From: a virus
Lineage: Duplodnaviria > Heunggongvirae > Uroviricota > Caudoviricetes
Reading direction: 5' to 3' (one strand)
DNA: 5,601 nucleotides
IMG/VR virus record: IMGVR_UViG_3300015185_000041
Span: 1 to 5,601 of that record
Position numbers and translations under genes: made by a program. Shown piece after piece: positions 265 to 5,601 of this stretch (positions are counted from its first letter, which is position 1; each line of letters opens with the position of its first letter). The notes under the pieces were generated by a model. That model saw nothing but the letters and a program-made list of their open reading frames with translations, was not told the DNA's origin and did no database searches.

Positions 265-555
265 TTAACAGGTTTTGTTTGGATACTGTCTTCGTGAGTG
301 AACTACATTTACGATCTCGATGTTAGATGCTGTTACTCGGTAAAGTATTATGTAGTTAGGATGAGTCACTATCTCACGAAGACTTGGAACTCTTTCGCTC
401 GGTGGGTACAGATAAGGGTGTTCAGTAAGTGACAAAACTGATGTTTCAATGCGTATTTTTAGTCTACGTGCAGCGGGAGGGTTTTCCTTAGCAATATAGG
501 CTACGATCTGACGTAAATCATCACGTGCAGAAGGTAGCCATAAAATGGGCAGCAT
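265..555 (-). CDS. parE: ParE/RelE-superfamily type II toxin (96 aa)
   Basis: Size and motifs (LPILWLPSARDDL..., ...HPNYIILYRV..., ...IEIVNVVHSRRQYP) fit ParE-family toxins. Its ATG shares one base with the TAA stop of the upstream antitoxin ORF (TAATG), the typical antitoxin-then-toxin coupling. Confidence 0.75.
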   Translation of the reverse strand: MLPILWLPSARDDLRQIVAYIAKENPPAARRLKIRIETSVLSLTEHPYLYPPSERVPSLREIVTHPNYIILYRVTASNIEIVNVVHSRRQYPNKTC

Positions 556-746
556 TACTCACTCCTGTTCGTTGCAGCTAATTGAGCAATAAGGTTTTCC
601 ATTTCAGCCATTACTTCGTCATGTGGAATTGCAGGACGGGGATCTGAGAGGCTTGCTGCCACTTTGGTTCGCAACCATTCGTTATAGCTGTTTTCTTGTT
701 CGACTGTTTCAAATTCAGAAATTATCGGGGAAAGGGCTGTACTCAT
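555..746 (-). CDS. paaA: Small type II antitoxin (63 aa), PaaA/ParD-like
   Basis: 63-aa ORF directly upstream of and coupled to the ParE-like toxin. Strong RBS (GGAGG, about 7-nt spacer). It resembles, from memory, the PaaA antitoxins of PaaR-PaaA-ParE systems; the gene symbol is a recollection, not a search result. Confidence 0.6.
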   Translation of the reverse strand: MSTALSPIISEFETVEQENSYNEWLRTKVAASLSDPRPAIPHDEVMAEMENLIAQLAATNRSE

Positions 747-763
747 GTTTTTACCTCCTCAGA

Positions 764-1264
764 TTAGGCGCGACGACCCTTTTGCGCAGCTAGCCATCGC
801 GCAACGATTTCTTCAATTGATTCTTTTTTCTCCTTCATTTCCTTAAGCATTTTCTCTTTATCTTCTTTGGGGAAAGCCCTGAACGTCTGGAGCAAATCCC
901 GCTCCATGGGGTCTATATTAAACGGAAGTTCGTTTTCCGATTGTTCCATATCTGCAGATATAGTGACAACATTGTCCTCCCCAGATTCTTGGGGATACAT
1001 CCTTACAATTTGTAACAACTCGGCCATATCTGGTCTGATTGACTCGGGAGGAACTTGCAGCAACCCTGCGAACTTGATAACAGCCTCAAGATTTAAAGGT
1101 GTCTGACCATTTAGATAATGGCTTACAGCTCCCTGTGTCGAAAATCCCAGAATTTCTGCCGCACGCTCTTGGGTTAACCCTAGTTGATTTTTTTTCGCCG
1201 TCCAGATTTCTTTCAGTCTCTGGGCGGCTTGCAGGTCGATCTCTGACAGGGATTTTCTTTTCAT
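764..1264 (-). CDS. HTH (XRE/Cro-CI family) regulator, prophage repressor-like and PaaR-like; no S24 peptidase domain (166 aa)
   Basis: Helix-turn-helix motif LGLTQERAAEILGFSTQGAVSHYLNG in the N-terminal half. The C-terminal half is acidic and lysine-rich and lacks an Ala-Gly cleavage site or Ser/Lys peptidase motifs. It faces a cro-like gene across an operator-bearing intergenic region and sits 17 bp upstream of the antitoxin on the same strand. Confidence 0.75.
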   Translation of the reverse strand: MKRKSLSEIDLQAAQRLKEIWTAKKNQLGLTQERAAEILGFSTQGAVSHYLNGQTPLNLEAVIKFAGLLQVPPESIRPDMAELLQIVRMYPQESGEDNVVTISADMEQSENELPFNIDPMERDLLQTFRAFPKEDKEKMLKEMKEKKESIEEIVARWLAAQKGRRA

Positions 1265-2063: not shown

Positions 2064-3041
2064 GTGTTCGGGGGTTTTATGAGCAGCAAGCTTCATGGTC
2101 TTGTCTGGGAAGGGTGCGCCTTCACCGGCATGATCTTATCCAGGGTGGCGGTTATGGCCCGTCTTGCAGACTACAGCAATGACGAGGGCGTGTCATGGCC
2201 TGCCATTGAAACTATCCGGCGTCAGATCGGTGCAAGAAGTGAATCCACAGTGAAATCGGCTATTGCAGAACTGGCGAAAGAGGGCTGGCTGACGAAGGAA
2301 GAGCGTAAGGTCGGTGGGCGTAATGTAAGCAATATCTATCGGCTTAATGTGGAAAAACTCGAAGCAGCTGCGGCGGCGGCGCGTGAGTCATATAAACCGA
2401 AAAGAAAAATTAGCCCGGCAAAAAATGACCCGTTAACAGTTGACCCGTCAAATATTGACCCCTCAACGGTTGACCCGTCAAATTTTGATGGATCAACTGT
2501 TGATAAAAAACTGCCGATTAGGGGGCCGATGATTGACCCCGATCCGTCAGTATTAAAACCTGATCCGTCAGATAAAAGATCTTCTTGTCCGGACGCTTCG
2601 CAACCGGACCCGCAGACGGCTGAACAGGATTTTTTAACCCGACACCCTGACGCGGTTGTGTTCAGTGCGAAAAAACGCCAGTGGGGAAGTCAGGAAGATT
2701 TGGTGTGCGCACAGTGGATCTGGGGACGAATCGTGAGTCTTTACGAGCAGGCGGCCAGCTATGATGGCGAGATCACTAGACCGAAAGAACCCAACTGGAC
2801 AGCATGGGCCAATGACGTTCGCACAATGCGGATGCTGGATGGCAGAACTCACAGACAAATTTGTGAAATGTTTGGGCGTCTCCAGCGGGATTCGTTCTGG
2901 GTAAAAAACATCATGAGTCCGGCAAAACTCCGGGAAAAATGGGATGAACTGGTTATCCGCCTGGGGCGTTCGCCTGCGCAGCGTTGCGTGAATCACATTT
3001 CTGAACCGGACACTGAAATTCCGCCGGGCTTCAGGGGGTAA
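2064..3041 (+). CDS. Replication initiator / replisome organizer: N-terminal winged-HTH, iteron-encoded linker, C-terminal DnaT-like domain (325 aa)
   Basis: The ORF opens at GTG 2064; ATG 2079 (MSSKLHG...) preceded by GGGGG is an alternative start. The repetitive linker (DPLTVDPSNIDPSTVDPSNFDGSTVD) is encoded by tandem DNA repeats, as ori-lambda lies inside O. The C-terminal tail ...VNHISEPDTEIPPGFRG closely matches the recalled E. coli DnaT tail ...VNTVSEPDSQIPPGFRG. Confidence 0.75.
   Translation: MFGGFMSSKLHGLVWEGCAFTGMILSRVAVMARLADYSNDEGVSWPAIETIRRQIGARSESTVKSAIAELAKEGWLTKEERKVGGRNVSNIYRLNVEKLEAAAAAARESYKPKRKISPAKNDPLTVDPSNIDPSTVDPSNFDGSTVDKKLPIRGPMIDPDPSVLKPDPSDKRSSCPDASQPDPQTAEQDFLTRHPDAVVFSAKKRQWGSQEDLVCAQWIWGRIVSLYEQAASYDGEITRPKEPNWTAWANDVRTMRMLDGRTHRQICEMFGRLQRDSFWVKNIMSPAKLREKWDELVIRLGRSPAQRCVNHISEPDTEIPPGFRG
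2426..2515. repeat. Putative replication-origin iterons: five to six tandem 15-bp repeats (core TTGAC-CC-GTCAA)
   Basis: Head-to-tail 15-mers: TGACCCGTTAACAGT, TGACCCGTCAAATAT, TGACCCCTCAACGGT, TGACCCGTCAAATTT, TGATGGATCAACTGT, then a degenerate TGATAAAAAACTGCC. Related CCGTCAG copies occur at about 2541-2570. An A-rich tract (about 2395-2425) flanks them on the left. Confidence 0.7.
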
Positions 3042-3081
3042 GTGTTAATTTCTGGTCATGAGGTAATTTTCAGTAGGGCTT

Positions 3082-3504
3082 GTGGCAAAAGTTTTTACAC
3101 AAGAAGAGCGGGAAAAAATTAAAGGGCAGGTTGTTGAACTCGTACGCCAGAGTGGGCGCGAGACGTTACGACAACTGGAAACTAAAACTGGGGCAACAAG
3201 ATATCTGATGAGCGTTCTGGCCAGAGAGCTGGTTGCCAGTGGCGATGTATACAACTCTGGTTACGGGTTATTCCCGTCTGAACAGGCGCGTAAGGACTGG
3301 CAAAATGCCCGTAAAAAGCTCTCAAGGGCAAAGCTGAAGAAACCATCTGCGGTTGATCCGGACCTTATCTGGTCATTACCTGACGGAGAAATACGTCGCT
3401 ACGACAGGCGCCTAAACATAATCTGTCGCGAGTGCCGGAAGAGTGAAGCTATGCAGCGTGTACTGGCGTTTTATCAGGGGAATTTTGAGGAGGTGGTGCG
3501 GTGA
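3082..3504 (+). CDS. ren: Ren-like protein with HTH-like N-terminal region (140 aa)
   Basis: GTG start with a weak RBS. The C-terminal motif ICRECRKSEAMQRVLAFY resembles the recalled lambda Ren C-terminus (..KECRQSAAMKRVLAVYG..). It sits directly after the replication gene, as ren follows O-P in lambda. Recollection only. Confidence 0.5.
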   Translation: MAKVFTQEEREKIKGQVVELVRQSGRETLRQLETKTGATRYLMSVLARELVASGDVYNSGYGLFPSEQARKDWQNARKKLSRAKLKKPSAVDPDLIWSLPDGEIRRYDRRLNIICRECRKSEAMQRVLAFYQGNFEEVVR

Positions 3505-3755
3505 GTGAATCAAAATGCCAGGTTAATGGCAACAAGATAGAACCATGTGCAGCACTGGCAAAGTCCCTTGAGCGTGATGCTGAATACACGATGCGAAAAG
3601 GTCTGCTGATATACAAAATCTGGAATGAGAGTTTAACTCGCGGTCCTGATTTTGTGATGTTGCGTTCCGGTGAATTTTCTAAATTACCAGTTCGGGTTTC
3701 ATTTTGTCCGTTCTGTGGTGAAAGTCTGAAAACGTGGGAGAACAGAAATGAATGA
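3501..3755 (+). CDS. Hypothetical small protein with putative zinc ribbon (84 aa)
   Basis: GTG start overlapping the upstream stop (GTGA) with a strong RBS (GAGGAGGTGG). Cysteines at C6, C16 and in a CPFCG motif near the C-terminus. Confidence 0.6.
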   Translation: MSESKCQVNGNKIEPCAALAKSLERDAEYTMRKGLLIYKIWNESLTRGPDFVMLRSGEFSKLPVRVSFCPFCGESLKTWENRNE

Positions 3756-4059
3756 AATTAAAGAAATACCAGTAGTACGTGATGAATATGGCTACTGGAC
3801 GCATCCTGAATATGAAAAATTCTGTGACGGTCGGGAATATATTTCAACGGAAGAGTTTAACGCCTGGATGGAGGAAAATAATCTTCAATACGTCCTCTGC
3901 TTCAGAGATGAAGGATGTGCTGACCTTGATGCGTGTGATGCTGATATTTCTGCATGGGAACCGGAACGACCAGAGGGCAATGGATGGTTTATTGGTTCAA
4001 TACATGACACCGAAGATGGCCCGGTTTGTGTATGGCTGAGAAATAAGGCCGAAGCATAA
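3748..4059 (+). CDS. Hypothetical acidic protein (103 aa)
   Basis: ATG overlaps the upstream stop (ATGAATGA); RBS GGGAG with 7-nt spacer. About 25 Asp/Glu against 8 Lys/Arg. Confidence 0.65.
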   Translation: MNEIKEIPVVRDEYGYWTHPEYEKFCDGREYISTEEFNAWMEENNLQYVLCFRDEGCADLDACDADISAWEPERPEGNGWFIGSIHDTEDGPVCVWLRNKAEA

Positions 4060-4158
4060 AGGCTATAAACCGACTAACAACTAAATACTGAAGATTTAAA
4101 TCAGAAACGATTTTTATTAAATCCTTAACCGGAGGGATTCCTGCACCCTCAGAACATC

Positions 4159-4190
4159 AGGAGGCCGTCCGAAAGGGCGGTAGTGAAATG
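4159..4190 (+). promoter_or_regulatory. Translation-initiation element: SD AGGAGG, 16-nt hairpin with GAAA tetraloop, then AUG
   Basis: AGGAGG (4159-4164) lies 23 nt from ATG 4188. The stem CCGUCC-GAAA-GGGCGG (4165-4180, one G-U pair) fills the gap, leaving 7 unpaired nt before the AUG. A second hairpin GAGGG-(9 nt)-CCCTC lies at 4132-4150. Confidence 0.45.
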
Positions 4191-4370
4191 CGAAAATTCA
4201 AAATAATTATTGAAACGGGAATAGCCGGTGGAGATTTCGAGGATGAATTCGAAGTGGATGATGATGCAACACCAGATGAAATACAGGATGAAGCTAAAGA
4301 TATTTTCTTTAACTACTGCAATTACTCATACCACGAAATAAAAGACGAAGAGGAAGAACAAAATGGCTGA
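4188..4370 (+). CDS. Hypothetical very acidic small protein (60 aa)
   Basis: About 20 Asp/Glu against 4 Lys/Arg. Hydrophobic N-terminal strand (KFKIIIETGIAGG) then an acidic tail ending EEEEQNG. Confidence 0.6.
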   Translation: MRKFKIIIETGIAGGDFEDEFEVDDDATPDEIQDEAKDIFFNYCNYSYHEIKDEEEEQNG

Positions 4371-4539
4371 TTTTGGTTCAACTAAATATAACGCCAGTTT
4401 TGAAGAATGGCATGAACTGTTAATGGATTATGCAGAGTTACGCGGTGGAAGTGCCGCTGATGCTGAAGCATGGCGTGATGATTATGAAGCAGGAAAAACT
4501 CCGGTCGAAGCATATTGTGATGAGTGGGGCGATGAATGA
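4363..4539 (+). CDS. Hypothetical acidic small protein (58 aa, absent from the supplied ORF track)
   Basis: Hand translation from ATG 4363: MADFGSTKYNASFEEWHELLMDYAELRGGSAADAEAWRDDYEAGKTPVEAYCDEWGDE, stop TGA 4537-4539. Its start overlaps the upstream stop (ATGGCTGA) and its stop overlaps the next ATG (ATGA). Confidence 0.6.
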   Translation: MADFGSTKYNASFEEWHELLMDYAELRGGSAADAEAWRDDYEAGKTPVEAYCDEWGDE

Positions 4540-4793
4540 GCGAGGTTAATTATCAGGAAGGGCATGAAACGGCGGGGCAAGCAAAAACAGTGGCATGGCG
4601 ATATCGCTACGTGAAAAAAAAGGCGTTACGGACTTTCAGGGGAAGTAGTGGTCTGGTGACTGGAAATATGTACCGAAAAAAGAGGATTGTAACGACAGGC
4701 CGAACTATGAAATTCAGGCCTTATTCACTGCCCCGCCAGTCCCGGTTACATCAGAAGAACTGGTTAAAGCTGTGCACTTTTATGAACAACTAA
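4536..4793 (+). CDS. Hypothetical basic small protein (85 aa); reading frame uncertain, possibly disrupted
   Basis: ATG coupled to the upstream stop. The product is very basic and uses rare Arg codons, while a more protein-like frame with no start codon runs alongside at 4649-4852 (see findings). Confidence 0.35.
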   Translation: MSEVNYQEGHETAGQAKTVAWRYRYVKKKALRTFRGSSGLVTGNMYRKKRIVTTGRTMKFRPYSLPRQSRLHQKNWLKLCTFMNN

Positions 4794-5022
4794 AACGCGA
4801 AAATCCACCAGCATCCGGAAACCTGATTACAGATTCCCAGATAAGGCAATGAGCTACCTGGCGCAGAACGGGCTGATAAGTATGGGGAATGTTTTACGAT
4901 GAATATTTAGACTAAAGAGTTTGTAACGCTATGTAAGTGATTTTTTCTGGTTTAGATATTTATATGTCCGGCCAAATTGAGGTGTGTTTAAATGTAATTG
5001 CACATTGATTGTAGGAGGAATA

Positions 5023-5202
5023 ATGAAAAACGCATTGCAGTTTTTGTTTGTTGCGTTCTGGTTGTTCGTATCATGTATGCCCATCATCTTCACAGCAAGG
5101 TATATGGAAAAAGTTGATGTTTTGATATTAATATTTGGATATATAAATGCCCTTTTTTTAGGGGTGTTCATGGCGGTCATGTGCATTGAATACTGGCGGT
5201 AA
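5023..5202 (+). CDS. Small two-helix membrane protein (59 aa)
   Basis: ATG 5023 preceded by AGGAGG (5013-5018). Product MKNALQFLFVAFWLFVSCMPIIFTARYMEKVDVLILIFGYINALFLGVFMAVMCIEYWR has two hydrophobic helices. The track ORF 4984..5202 starts at an upstream GTG with no RBS. Confidence 0.6.
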   Translation: MKNALQFLFVAFWLFVSCMPIIFTARYMEKVDVLILIFGYINALFLGVFMAVMCIEYWR

Positions 5203-5257
5203 ATACAGCGAACGCCATTGGTTTAGTTGGATATTTACTGTGCCGGACAAAAACGGT

Positions 5258-5460
5258 TTGCGGGGAAATCTTAGTTAAGTAGAATGACTGCGGGTGCTTG
5301 AGGCTATCTGTCTCAGGCATGAACACCAAAAGGCAGATAGAGAAAAGCCCCAGTTAACATTACGCGTCCTGCAAGACGCTTAACATTAATCTGAGGCCAT
5401 ATCTATGCGACACATAGAGATTAGCCTCTTACGGACCGAAAGGTCAAGGAGAAGCAGGCT
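5258..5460 (+). promoter_or_regulatory. Hok mRNA leader: candidate promoter and structured 5' UTR
   Basis: Candidate promoter: -35 TTGCGG (5258-5263), 16-bp spacer, -10 TAGAAT (5280-5285). 10-bp stem at 5304-5313 paired with 5331-5340, 17-nt loop. Hairpin 5402-5418 sequesters the AUG of the short upstream ORF. Confidence 0.4.
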
Positions 5461-5464
5461 ATGA
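5405..5464 (+). CDS. Short upstream ORF (19 aa) coupled to hok; possible Mok analogue
   Basis: ATG 5405 with GAGG 8 nt upstream; TGA stop overlaps the hok ATG (ATGA). Product MRHIEISLLRTERSRRSRL. Confidence 0.3.
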   Translation: MRHIEISLLRTERSRRSRL

Positions 5465-5601
5465 AGCAGCAAAAGGCGATGTTAATCGCCCTGATCGTCA
5501 TCTGTTTAACCGTCATTGTGACGGCACTGGTAACGAGGAAAGACCTCTGCGAGGTACGAATCCGAACCGGCCAGACGGAGGTCGCTGTCTTCACAGCTTA
5601 C
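5461..5601 (+). CDS. hok: Hok/Gef-family type I toxin, truncated by the window edge
   Basis: MKQQKAMLIALIVICLTVIVTALVTRKDLCEVRIRTGQTEVAVFTAY is near-identical to recalled HokD/HokC sequences. RBS AAGGAG with 9-nt spacer. About four codons are missing beyond position 5601. Confidence 0.85.
   Translation, partial: MKQQKAMLIALIVICLTVIVTALVTRKDLCEVRIRTGQTEVAVFTAY

What the first reader, a model, noticed from the sequence alone, without database searches (positions are those of the whole stretch)
3748..4539. Three consecutive strongly acidic small proteins are candidate anti-defence factors
The 103-, 60- and 58-aa products each carry a large excess of Asp/Glu over Lys/Arg (about 25 vs 8, 20 vs 4 and 16 vs 4 by my count). 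Small, highly acidic early phage proteins are the hallmark of DNA-mimic anti-restriction and anti-defence proteins such as the Ocr and ArdA types. They sit in the early region right after the replication genes and I cannot match them to a named family from memory. This is the most plausible place in the window for an undescribed function.
Basis: inference. Interest (0 to 1): 0.5.

Follow-up and report, generated by a model that had tools for sequence, protein, structure and literature searches.

The report
Three unrelated acidic prophage accessory proteins
Three small, very acidic proteins sit side by side in the early region of an E. coli Rac/lambda-like prophage; they are real, conserved genes from three unrelated families of unknown function that also travel on other phages and plasmids, and nothing links them yet to any known anti-defence protein.

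Summary
ORFs 3748-4059 (103 aa), 4188-4370 (60 aa) and 4363-4539 (58 aa) have 25/8, 20/5 and 16/4 Asp+Glu versus Lys+Arg (pI about 4.1).

They are real genes: dN/dS is 0.07-0.22, and the acidity is kept in distant relatives.

They are not a functional triad:
- The three families are unrelated: phrog_1372; Pfam DUF7167/phrog_1997; phrog_519.
- They lie in two separate cassettes, orf84-orf103 and orf60-orf58, joined at a variable slot. In sibling prophages that slot holds PD-Lambda-2-like defence genes, an IS1 or other cargo.

No known anti-defence family matches:
- Pfam, NCBIfam, PADLOC and PDB sequence searches gave no relevant hit.

New context:
- The orf58 family occurs across mobile elements: lambdoid and P2-like prophages, about 174 mostly Vi01-like virulent phages, and 554 plasmids including IncI2 mcr-1 plasmids.
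- orf103 relatives sit at the last-transferred end of IncF tra operons, which argues against an entry-phase anti-restriction role.

The anti-defence/DNA-mimic reading stays plausible but untested. Membership of the Ocr or ArdA families is rejected.

The parts
3082..3504 (+). DUF977 / 'Ren-like exclusion protein' gene, immediately upstream of the cassette (context only)
   Evidence: Pfam DUF977 at 6e-29; phrog_142 at 4e-48. Its stop overlaps the orf84 start.
3501..3755 (+). orf84, mildly basic (pI 8.4) with four Cys; the frequent upstream partner of orf103
   Evidence: phrog_4030 at 7e-39. It overlaps orf103 by 8 nt. It precedes orf103 in about 55 of 80 viral loci and is absent in about 25. DNA homologues occur in P1/P7-like phages.
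3748..4059 (+). orf103, acidic protein 1 (25 D/E vs 8 K/R): alpha/beta core with an acidic, variable loop at about residues 51-79
4060..4187 (.). 128-nt spacer that forms the junction between the two cassettes and the edge of a variable cargo slot. It holds AGGAGG (4159-4164) and a 7-bp GAAA-loop hairpin (4164-4181) ahead of the orf60 ATG.
   Evidence: The content downstream of orf103 differs among sibling loci. The hairpin was folded; z = -0.96, not significant.
4188..4370 (+). orf60, acidic protein 2 (20 D/E vs 5 K/R), a DUF7167 family member
   Evidence: Pfam PF23768 at 54.5 bits against a cutoff of 24.4. phrog_1997 at 2.7e-30. Annotated 'DUF7167 family protein' in RefSeq. Relatives occur in Klebsiella and Enterococcus phages.
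4363..4539 (+). orf58, acidic protein 3 (16 D/E vs 4 K/R), a three-helix bundle found on many kinds of mobile element
4536..4837 (+). orf85, the frameshifted remnant of a 119-aa gene that normally follows orf58
   Evidence: The 119-aa CH4796 protein aligns to 4536-4619 in frame 3 and to 4616-4837 in frame 2.

Best explanation
The window holds three unrelated accessory early genes of a Rac-like lambdoid prophage. They are under purifying selection and are co-transcribed with the replication genes.

They belong to two independent cassettes, orf84-orf103 and orf60-orf58, that happen to abut at a recombination junction and cargo hotspot.

My best guess at mechanism: each product is a small, stoichiometric protein-binding inhibitor made early after induction or entry. 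Its conserved negative surface would occupy the nucleic-acid-binding site of a host protein, such as a restriction/BREX-type enzyme, RecBCD or a nucleoid protein. That would make them counter-defence or host-takeover factors that work like, but are not members of, the Ocr/ArdA/gp5.9/Gam class.

This fits orf58 and orf60 best. For orf103 the conserved aromatic core probably makes the specific contact, and the acidic loop is an adaptable appendage.

Shown: gene reality, family identities, conserved acidity, the folds of two of the three, modularity, and distribution on mobile elements. Inferred: any target, any binding, any anti-defence effect.
For: - Charge density of -0.17 to -0.25 per residue and 24-33% Asp+Glu, comparable with Ocr's 34 of 116.
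- Acidity is kept in homologues of 30-60% identity in all three families.
- dN/dS is 0.07-0.22.
- All three are co-oriented and translationally coupled within the early-right operon, directly after a gene that PHROGs labels Ren-like.
- The slot after orf103 is a variable hotspot. In sibling prophages it carries PD-Lambda-2_C/Beta_protein plus cll, an IS1 or other cargo.
- orf58 relatives occur in lambdoid nin and ea regions and directly after gpA at the edge of the P2 variable region beside an nSTAND1 gene.
- orf58 relatives also occur in 198 phage records, 174 of them below 60% identity and mostly about 155-160-kb Vi01-like virulent phages, and on 554 plasmids, 516 of them conjugative.
- That spread across mobile-element types that share hosts but not life cycles favours a host target.
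- DUF7167 relatives occur in virulent Klebsiella phages directly upstream of a PD-(D/E)XK exonuclease in the replication/recombination module.
Against: - No direct functional evidence exists.
- No sequence or profile match to any anti-defence protein or solved DNA mimic.
- orf103 relatives on about 2000 plasmids sit at the distal, last-transferred end of IncF tra operons, not in leading regions where plasmid anti-defence genes concentrate (PMC11541004).
- The IncI2 orf58 copy lies next to repA and a CaiF/GrlA regulator, not in an obvious anti-defence island.
- orf103's most acidic stretch is a variable loop with low pLDDT.
- Small acidic proteins serve many other roles.
- No paper mentions these families.
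Confidence: 0.35

Rival explanations
1. The proteins serve the mobile element's own DNA metabolism. They would be small modulators or adaptors of replication or recombination proteins, not host-directed inhibitors.
For: - orf58 homologues directly follow, and overlap or abut, replication-module genes: gpA in P2-like prophages and O/P-Ead in lambdoids. The IncI2 copy lies about 2 kb from repA.
- DUF7167 overlaps a DUF2800/PD-(D/E)XK exonuclease gene beside a Gp2.5-like SSB and the DNA polymerase in Guernseyvirinae.
- In the window all three follow the O-like initiator.
Against: - The upstream neighbour of orf58 changes freely: DUF7167, DUF1187, Ead/Ea22, gpA, unknown. In Vi01 it follows the capsid gene. 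There is therefore no constant element-encoded partner.
- The elements involved use unrelated replication systems.
- The 'exonuclease' next to DUF7167 in Enterococcus phages is really a DUF3850/ASCH protein.
Confidence: 0.22
2. orf103 is the cognate inhibitor, immunity protein or partner of the protein encoded just upstream. In this reading orf84-orf103 is a two-gene module comparable to a nuclease plus an acidic inhibitor.
For: - orf84 and orf103 overlap by 8 nt and travel together in about 55 of 80 loci, in both the early-right and early-left regions.
- In IncFII(K) plasmids the orf103 relative overlaps a DUF2726 (restriction-endonuclease-like) gene and precedes a PLD nuclease.
- In Yersinia pYR7 it directly follows a gene annotated as an HNH endonuclease.
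Against: - About 25 of 80 loci have orf103 without orf84.
- In mEp213, Vibrio, Klebsiella LASTA and PY54 phages it stands alone or is fused to a C-terminal extension.
- In other IncF plasmids the upstream gene is a 236-aa protein with no Pfam match, homologous to the 214-aa protein that lies upstream of DUF2726 in the Klebsiella plasmid; it is not a nuclease.
- orf84 has no nuclease domain and no similarity to DUF2726.
- The pYR7 'HNH' gene gave no Pfam hit.
Confidence: 0.12
3. The acidity is incidental. These are ordinary dispensable nin/ea-type genes with regulatory, lysogeny-related or exclusion roles, like Ea22 or Ren, and have nothing to do with DNA mimicry.
For: - They share neighbourhoods with Ead/Ea22, DUF551 and DUF4014 genes, for which none of the libraries used here gives a function.
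- The same cassettes appear in either arm of the early region.
- PHROGs lists all three as 'unknown function'.
- The run of three is not statistically compelling once linkage is allowed for.
Against: - Net negative charge is conserved over wide divergence in all three families, which suggests selection on charge.
- orf58 and DUF7167 also occur in strictly virulent phages, so a lysogeny-specific role is unlikely for them.
Confidence: 0.25
4. One or more of the ORFs is not a real gene.
For: They are short, and the ORF listing is purely mechanical.
Against: - dN/dS is 0.07-0.22.
- The families have hundreds of members across genera.
- The AF2 models are confident.
- There are Pfam and PHROG matches.
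Confidence: 0.02

Closest known systems
T7 Ocr (gp0.3) and ArdA DNA-mimic anti-restriction proteins
   Same: They are small early or establishment proteins of mobile elements. About 25-33% of residues are Asp+Glu and there are few basic residues (Ocr 34 of 116).
   Different: There is no sequence, profile or fold similarity. The proteins here are far smaller (58-103 aa). orf103 is alpha/beta with a flexible acidic loop, not an elongated helical rod. orf103 relatives on IncF plasmids are at the lagging end, unlike ardA.
T7 gp5.9 and lambda Gam (small acidic RecBCD inhibitors encoded next to phage recombination exonucleases; gene order from my own knowledge)
   Same: orf60 and orf58 have the size and charge of gp5.9. 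DUF7167 sits directly upstream of a PD-(D/E)XK exonuclease in two closely related, syntenic Klebsiella Guernseyvirinae phages. No gam gene is annotated in the early-left arm of the near-identical CH4796 prophage, which carries an 823-aa 3'-5' exonuclease.
   Different: There is no sequence match to the solved gp5.9 or Gam chains. In the window DUF7167 is in the nin-type region, far from the exonuclease. The adjacency rests on one phage lineage.
Lambdoid nin-region and exo-xis/ea-region accessory ORFs (Ren, Ead/Ea22, DUF551, DUF1187 and similar)
   Same: They have the same genomic niche, the same translationally coupled strings of small genes, the same mosaic exchange between early-left and early-right arms, and mostly unknown function.
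   Different: The three families here are distinct from those Pfam families. Two of them extend to virulent phages and conjugative plasmids.
Acidic nuclease inhibitors and immunity proteins (barstar, colicin Im proteins; from my own knowledge)
   Same: These are small acidic proteins encoded immediately downstream of their partner and overlapping it. orf103 relatives follow DUF2726 or 'HNH' genes on some plasmids.
   Different: The partner is not constant and is often absent. There is no fold match.

Membership tests
Ocr (T7 gp0.3) family | Detectable sequence or profile homology to Ocr | tested here: not met
   No Ocr hit in Pfam or NCBIfam. No PDB chain hit for single sequences or family profiles.
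Ocr (T7 gp0.3) family | Elongated all-helical fold that mimics bent B-DNA | tested here: not met
Ocr (T7 gp0.3) family | Very high Asp+Glu content with few Lys/Arg | tested here: met
   24%, 33% and 28% acidic residues; net -17, -15 and -12. Ocr has 34 of 116 (PMC3439906).
ArdA family | Pfam ArdA domain, about 165 aa, three-domain dimer | tested here: not met
   No hit. The lengths are 58-103 aa.
ArdA family | Located in the leading region of conjugative elements | tested here: inconclusive
   orf103 relatives lie at the distal end of IncF tra operons, the lagging end. The orf58 relative in IncI2 lies about 15 kb from mobC on the presumed leading side, but next to repA. oriT was not mapped.
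DNA-mimic proteins (functional class) | Negative charge conserved across the family | tested here: met
   Family means of -0.15 to -0.17 per residue. The charge is kept in distant homologues.
DNA-mimic proteins (functional class) | Rigid surface array of carboxylates matching DNA phosphate geometry | not testable with these tools
   Model coordinates are not returned. orf103's most acidic segment is a loop with low pLDDT.
DNA-mimic proteins (functional class) | Binds and blocks the DNA-binding site of a target protein | not testable with these tools
   This needs pull-downs, complex prediction or biochemistry.
Pfam DUF7167 (PF23768) | Score above the gathering threshold over the full-length model | tested here: met
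   orf60 scores 54.5 bits against 24.4, covering model positions 1-60 of 60. RefSeq names the identical protein DUF7167.
PHROG 1372 / 1997 / 519 | Significant HMM match | tested here: met
   8.5e-56, 2.7e-30 and 8.5e-23. All are listed as 'unknown function'.
Two-gene toxin/nuclease-inhibitor module (orf84-orf103) | Obligate co-occurrence with a toxic or nuclease partner | tested here: not met
   About 25 of 80 loci lack orf84. The neighbours of distant homologues vary. orf84 has no nuclease domain.
Known anti-phage defence components (PADLOC) | HMM match to a defence protein | tested here: not met
   No hits for any of the six cassette proteins at E <= 1.

The most novel reading that the evidence does not exclude
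The orf58 family (phrog_519) is a new family of small three-helix acidic inhibitors, present on many kinds of mobile element, that target a conserved Enterobacterales DNA-binding defence or genome-maintenance protein. It is shared by lambdoid and P2-like prophages, Vi01-like virulent phages and conjugative plasmids, including IncI2 mcr-1 plasmids. DUF7167 (orf60) would be a second such family, possibly a RecBCD/AddAB-type inhibitor, with relatives reaching phages of Gram-positive hosts.
Probability: 0.2. Interest if true: 0.65.

Novelty: new member of a known kind. Interest (0 to 1): 0.35.

Why it matters
If any of the three is a counter-defence protein, it would add a new small-inhibitor family. 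Such families are useful as probes of bacterial immunity and for phage therapy or plasmid-spread studies.

orf58 would matter most. Near-identical copies sit on hundreds of IncI2 conjugative plasmids, including a sampled mcr-1 carrier, and relatives sit in Vi01-like phages.

As things stand, the result is a well-delimited set of three uncharacterised but abundant mobile-element families with cheap, specific experiments attached. It is not a discovery.

Tried and rejected
- **Zn site in orf103 (H19/C26/H86/C94).** These residues are nearly invariant among the Enterobacterales sequences aligned in A1. They are replaced in the Vibrio and Burkholderia homologues, and by strand geometry H86 and C94 should face opposite sides of the hairpin. 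Rejected.
- **Three paralogues.** hhalign probabilities are 1.3% or lower between the three family profiles. Rejected.
- **Obligate triad or operon.** Rejected by locus counts.
- **orf58 = DUF5419.** A GenBank annotation in Morganella phage Mecenats66 says so. It was not reproduced by Pfam on that protein, and only one member of alignment A5 gave a hit, at E = 0.02.
- **'Exonuclease' next to DUF7167 in Enterococcus phages.** That protein is DUF3850/ASCH, and the Enterococcus DUF7167 matches are just below Pfam's cutoff (18.9 bits against 24.4).
- **DUF2726 as a constant partner of orf103 on plasmids.** It is lineage-specific.
- **Literature.** Searches for DUF7167, the PHROG ids, WP accessions, DUF5419 and DUF1187 found nothing relevant. 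The supplements of the leading-region paper gave no match for DUF1187, DUF7167, CaiF, NfeD or the IncI2 orf58 accession.
- **Promoters, terminators and the spacer hairpin.** The promoter/terminator scan of 3000-5601 found nothing on the + strand and nothing above shuffle expectation. The hairpin before orf60 is not significant.

Full report
**What the window is.** The 5.6-kb window is the immunity and early-right region of a Rac/Qin-like lambdoid prophage of E. coli. It is 99% identical to a prophage next to ompW in strain CH4796. The genes, in order:
- relE/relB (265-746, minus strand)
- a cI-like repressor (764-1264, minus strand)
- a cro/YdaS-like gene
- YdaT/cII-like (1631-2056)
- an O-like initiator (2064-3041)
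- DUF977, which PHROGs calls 'Ren-like exclusion protein' (3082-3504)
- orf84, orf103, a 128-nt spacer, orf60, orf58 and orf85
- a hok/sok locus, with sok RNA at 5292-5463

**The observation.**
- Among the 33 annotated CDS of the CH4796 prophage they are the three most acidic per residue: -0.17, -0.25 and -0.21. Only the 42-aa YdfB is comparable.
- A run of three among four such genes has p about 0.02 if the genes are independent. It is about 0.18 once orf60-orf58 is treated as one linked unit. The adjacency is therefore not strong evidence of shared function.
- The genes are real. dN/dS against diverged homologues is 0.07-0.22. Each matches a populous family. Both modelled proteins fold confidently.

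**Family identities.**
- orf103 is phrog_1372. It has 236 close homologues of 103-108 aa in Enterobacterales prophages, and no Pfam family.
- orf60 is Pfam DUF7167 (54.5 bits against a 24.4-bit cutoff) and phrog_1997. RefSeq already labels the identical protein this way.
- orf58 is phrog_519, with no Pfam family. A profile search of 1.8 billion representatives found 75 clusters, mostly stand-alone proteins of 50-65 aa.
- The three families are unrelated to each other (hhalign probability 1.3% or lower).
- No paper in the library mentions them.

**Structure.**
- orf103 is predicted (pLDDT 83, pTM 0.74) as two helices packed on a three-stranded sheet. A loop of low confidence spans roughly residues 51-79.
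- That stretch, especially residues 53-69, is the most acidic segment, and it is more variable than the conserved C-terminal core. E. coli alleles differ there in a mosaic pattern.
- The conserved positions are mainly aromatic, Gly and Pro: RDxxGxWTHP, WxPxxPxGxGWF and SIHDTEDGxVCxW.
- orf58 is predicted (pLDDT 88.5) as a compact three-helix bundle with conserved Trp/Tyr core residues and conserved acidic positions.
- Foldseek against BFVD links orf103 only to uncharacterised phage proteins, some with the domain embedded in proteins of 150-540 aa.
- Sequence and profile searches of all PDB chains give nothing. The PDB should include the solved DNA mimics (Ocr, ArdA, Arn, Gam, gp5.9, Ugi, several Acrs); that listing is from my own knowledge.

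**Not a triad.**
- In 80 IMG/VR loci that carry orf103, about 55 have orf84 immediately upstream and only about 20 have orf60-orf58 downstream.
- In 81 loci that carry orf58, 80 have orf60 at -175 nt, but only 12 have orf84-orf103.
- The position after orf103 is a variable slot. Sibling prophages carry there a PD-Lambda-2_C/Beta_protein gene plus a 'cll' gene, an IS1 followed by those same genes (Rac-SA53), a small membrane protein plus DUF551, or an unrelated 155-aa gene (mEp460).
- In mEp460 the orf84-orf103 cassette lies in the early-left arm rather than the early-right arm.
- Even the orf60-orf58 link is only local. At 67-79% identity, orf58 follows Ead/Ea22 genes in Enterobacter prophages and gpA in Salmonella P2-like prophages, with no DUF7167 present.

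**Distribution on mobile elements (new context).**
- orf58 relatives are in 198 phage records. Of these, 174 are below 60% identity, mostly about 155-160-kb Vi01-like virulent phages; in Vi01 the gene is Vi01_151c.
- orf58 relatives are also on 554 plasmids, 516 of them conjugative. In about 60-kb IncI2 plasmids, including an mcr-1 carrier, an 86%-identical copy lies in the string CaiF/GrlA-DUF1187-orf58-SPFH-NfeD, about 2 kb from repA. Copies are also on IncT and IncU-type large plasmids.
- The start of orf58 nearly always overlaps or abuts whatever gene lies upstream.
- DUF7167 relatives occur in lambdoid Klebsiella prophages and in two syntenic Klebsiella Guernseyvirinae phages, where the gene overlaps a DUF2800/PD-(D/E)XK exonuclease gene. 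They also occur, just below Pfam's threshold, in Enterococcus Herelleviridae.
- orf103 relatives occur in phages of Burkholderia, Pseudomonas, Vibrio, Erwinia and Yersinia.
- orf103 relatives are also on 2042 plasmids. In the IncF plasmids examined they lie at the distal end of the tra operon, just before repA. That is the region transferred last (10.1101/2024.10.15.618418).

**Interpretation.**
- Membership of Ocr or ArdA is rejected.
- The broader idea, acidic inhibitors of host nucleic-acid-binding proteins, is neither confirmed nor excluded.
- Points for it: conserved charge, early co-transcription beside a Ren-like gene, residence at a cargo hotspot, and, for orf58 and DUF7167, presence in virulent phages and/or plasmids that share hosts but not life cycles.
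- Points against it: no similarity to anything known, the lagging-end position of orf103 relatives on plasmids, the floppy nature of orf103's acidic segment, and the general abundance of acidic small proteins with other roles.
- I put about 0.35 on a host-directed, mimicry-type inhibitor role for at least one of the three. The most likely candidates are orf58 and orf60.
- Rivals are element-internal replication or recombination accessory roles (0.22), an orf84-orf103 partner module (0.12), and incidental acidity with some other accessory role (0.25).

**Verdict.** The 'consecutive triplet' is a coincidence of two cassettes. The families are catalogued but functionally blank. The anti-defence hypothesis is a reasonable, cheaply testable lead and not yet a finding.

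Noticed in passing
window 4536-4837: orf85 is a frameshifted pseudogene. The intact 119-aa homologue of strain CH4796 aligns in frame 3 up to about 4619 and in frame 2 from 4616 to 4837.
   Followed up: yes
window 5292-5463: Full-length sok antisense RNA (Rfam RF01794, 106.7 bits), that is, a hok/sok type I toxin-antitoxin locus at the right end of the window. The relBE pair lies at 265-746 on the minus strand.
   Followed up: partly
L018 4618-6253; Rac-SA53 L002 5640-7275: In sibling prophages the slot directly after orf103 holds a convergent pair matching PADLOC 'cll' and PD-Lambda-2_C / Pfam Beta_protein. The site where orf60-orf58 sit in the window is therefore a defence-cargo hotspot.
   Followed up: partly
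window 4159-4187: A strong AGGAGG lies 23 nt upstream of the orf60 ATG. Between them is a 7-bp GC-rich hairpin with a GAAA loop, which might bring the Shine-Dalgarno sequence close to the start codon. The fold energy is not significant against shuffles (z = -0.96). Some gene callers extend orf60 homologues through this region to 84-93 aa.
   Followed up: partly
window 3501-3755: orf84 (phrog_4030) has four Cys (C6, C16, C69, C72; the last two as CPFC). About 80%-identical DNA occurs in P1/P7/D6/SJ46-type phage-plasmids, near upf87.4 in P7.
   Followed up: no
L176 8793-9177 (IncI2 plasmid p14EC047a): A DUF1187 gene overlaps the orf58 homologue by 8 nt, the same junction geometry as orf60/orf58 in the window. 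One database protein (P0265, 127 aa) reads as a DUF1187-orf58 fusion.
   Followed up: partly
L180 6984-9946 (Klebsiella IncFII(K) plasmid): The distal end of the tra operon carries PIN7, a 214-aa protein of unknown function, DUF2726 (REase-like), the orf103 homologue and a PLD-family nuclease, just before repA. This is a nuclease-rich accessory block of unknown role.
   Followed up: partly
L181 4001-4516; L186 2498-3025; L185 2501-3022: In Yersinia pYR7, phage PY54 (ORF48) and Klebsiella phage LASTA, the orf103-type domain is the N-terminal half of proteins of 171-175 aa with a helical-looking C-terminal extension. In Burkholderia phi1026b gp46 the domain is internal to a 221-aa protein.
   Followed up: no
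L172 3013-3513: The gene annotated 'exonuclease' next to the DUF7167-like gene in Enterococcus phage PBEF129 is a DUF3850/ASCH-domain protein according to Pfam. The annotation is probably wrong.
   Followed up: yes
window 4984-5202: A 72-aa ORF with two hydrophobic segments (a possible small membrane protein) lies between the orf85 remnant and the hok/sok locus. It has no Pfam, PHROG or NCBIfam match.
   Followed up: no
window 2064-3041: The last about 20 residues of the O-like initiator weakly match the C-terminus of primosomal protein DnaT (NCBIfam NF002770, E = 0.004). This agrees with the 'primosomal protein I' annotation of YdaU in Rac-SA53.
   Followed up: no
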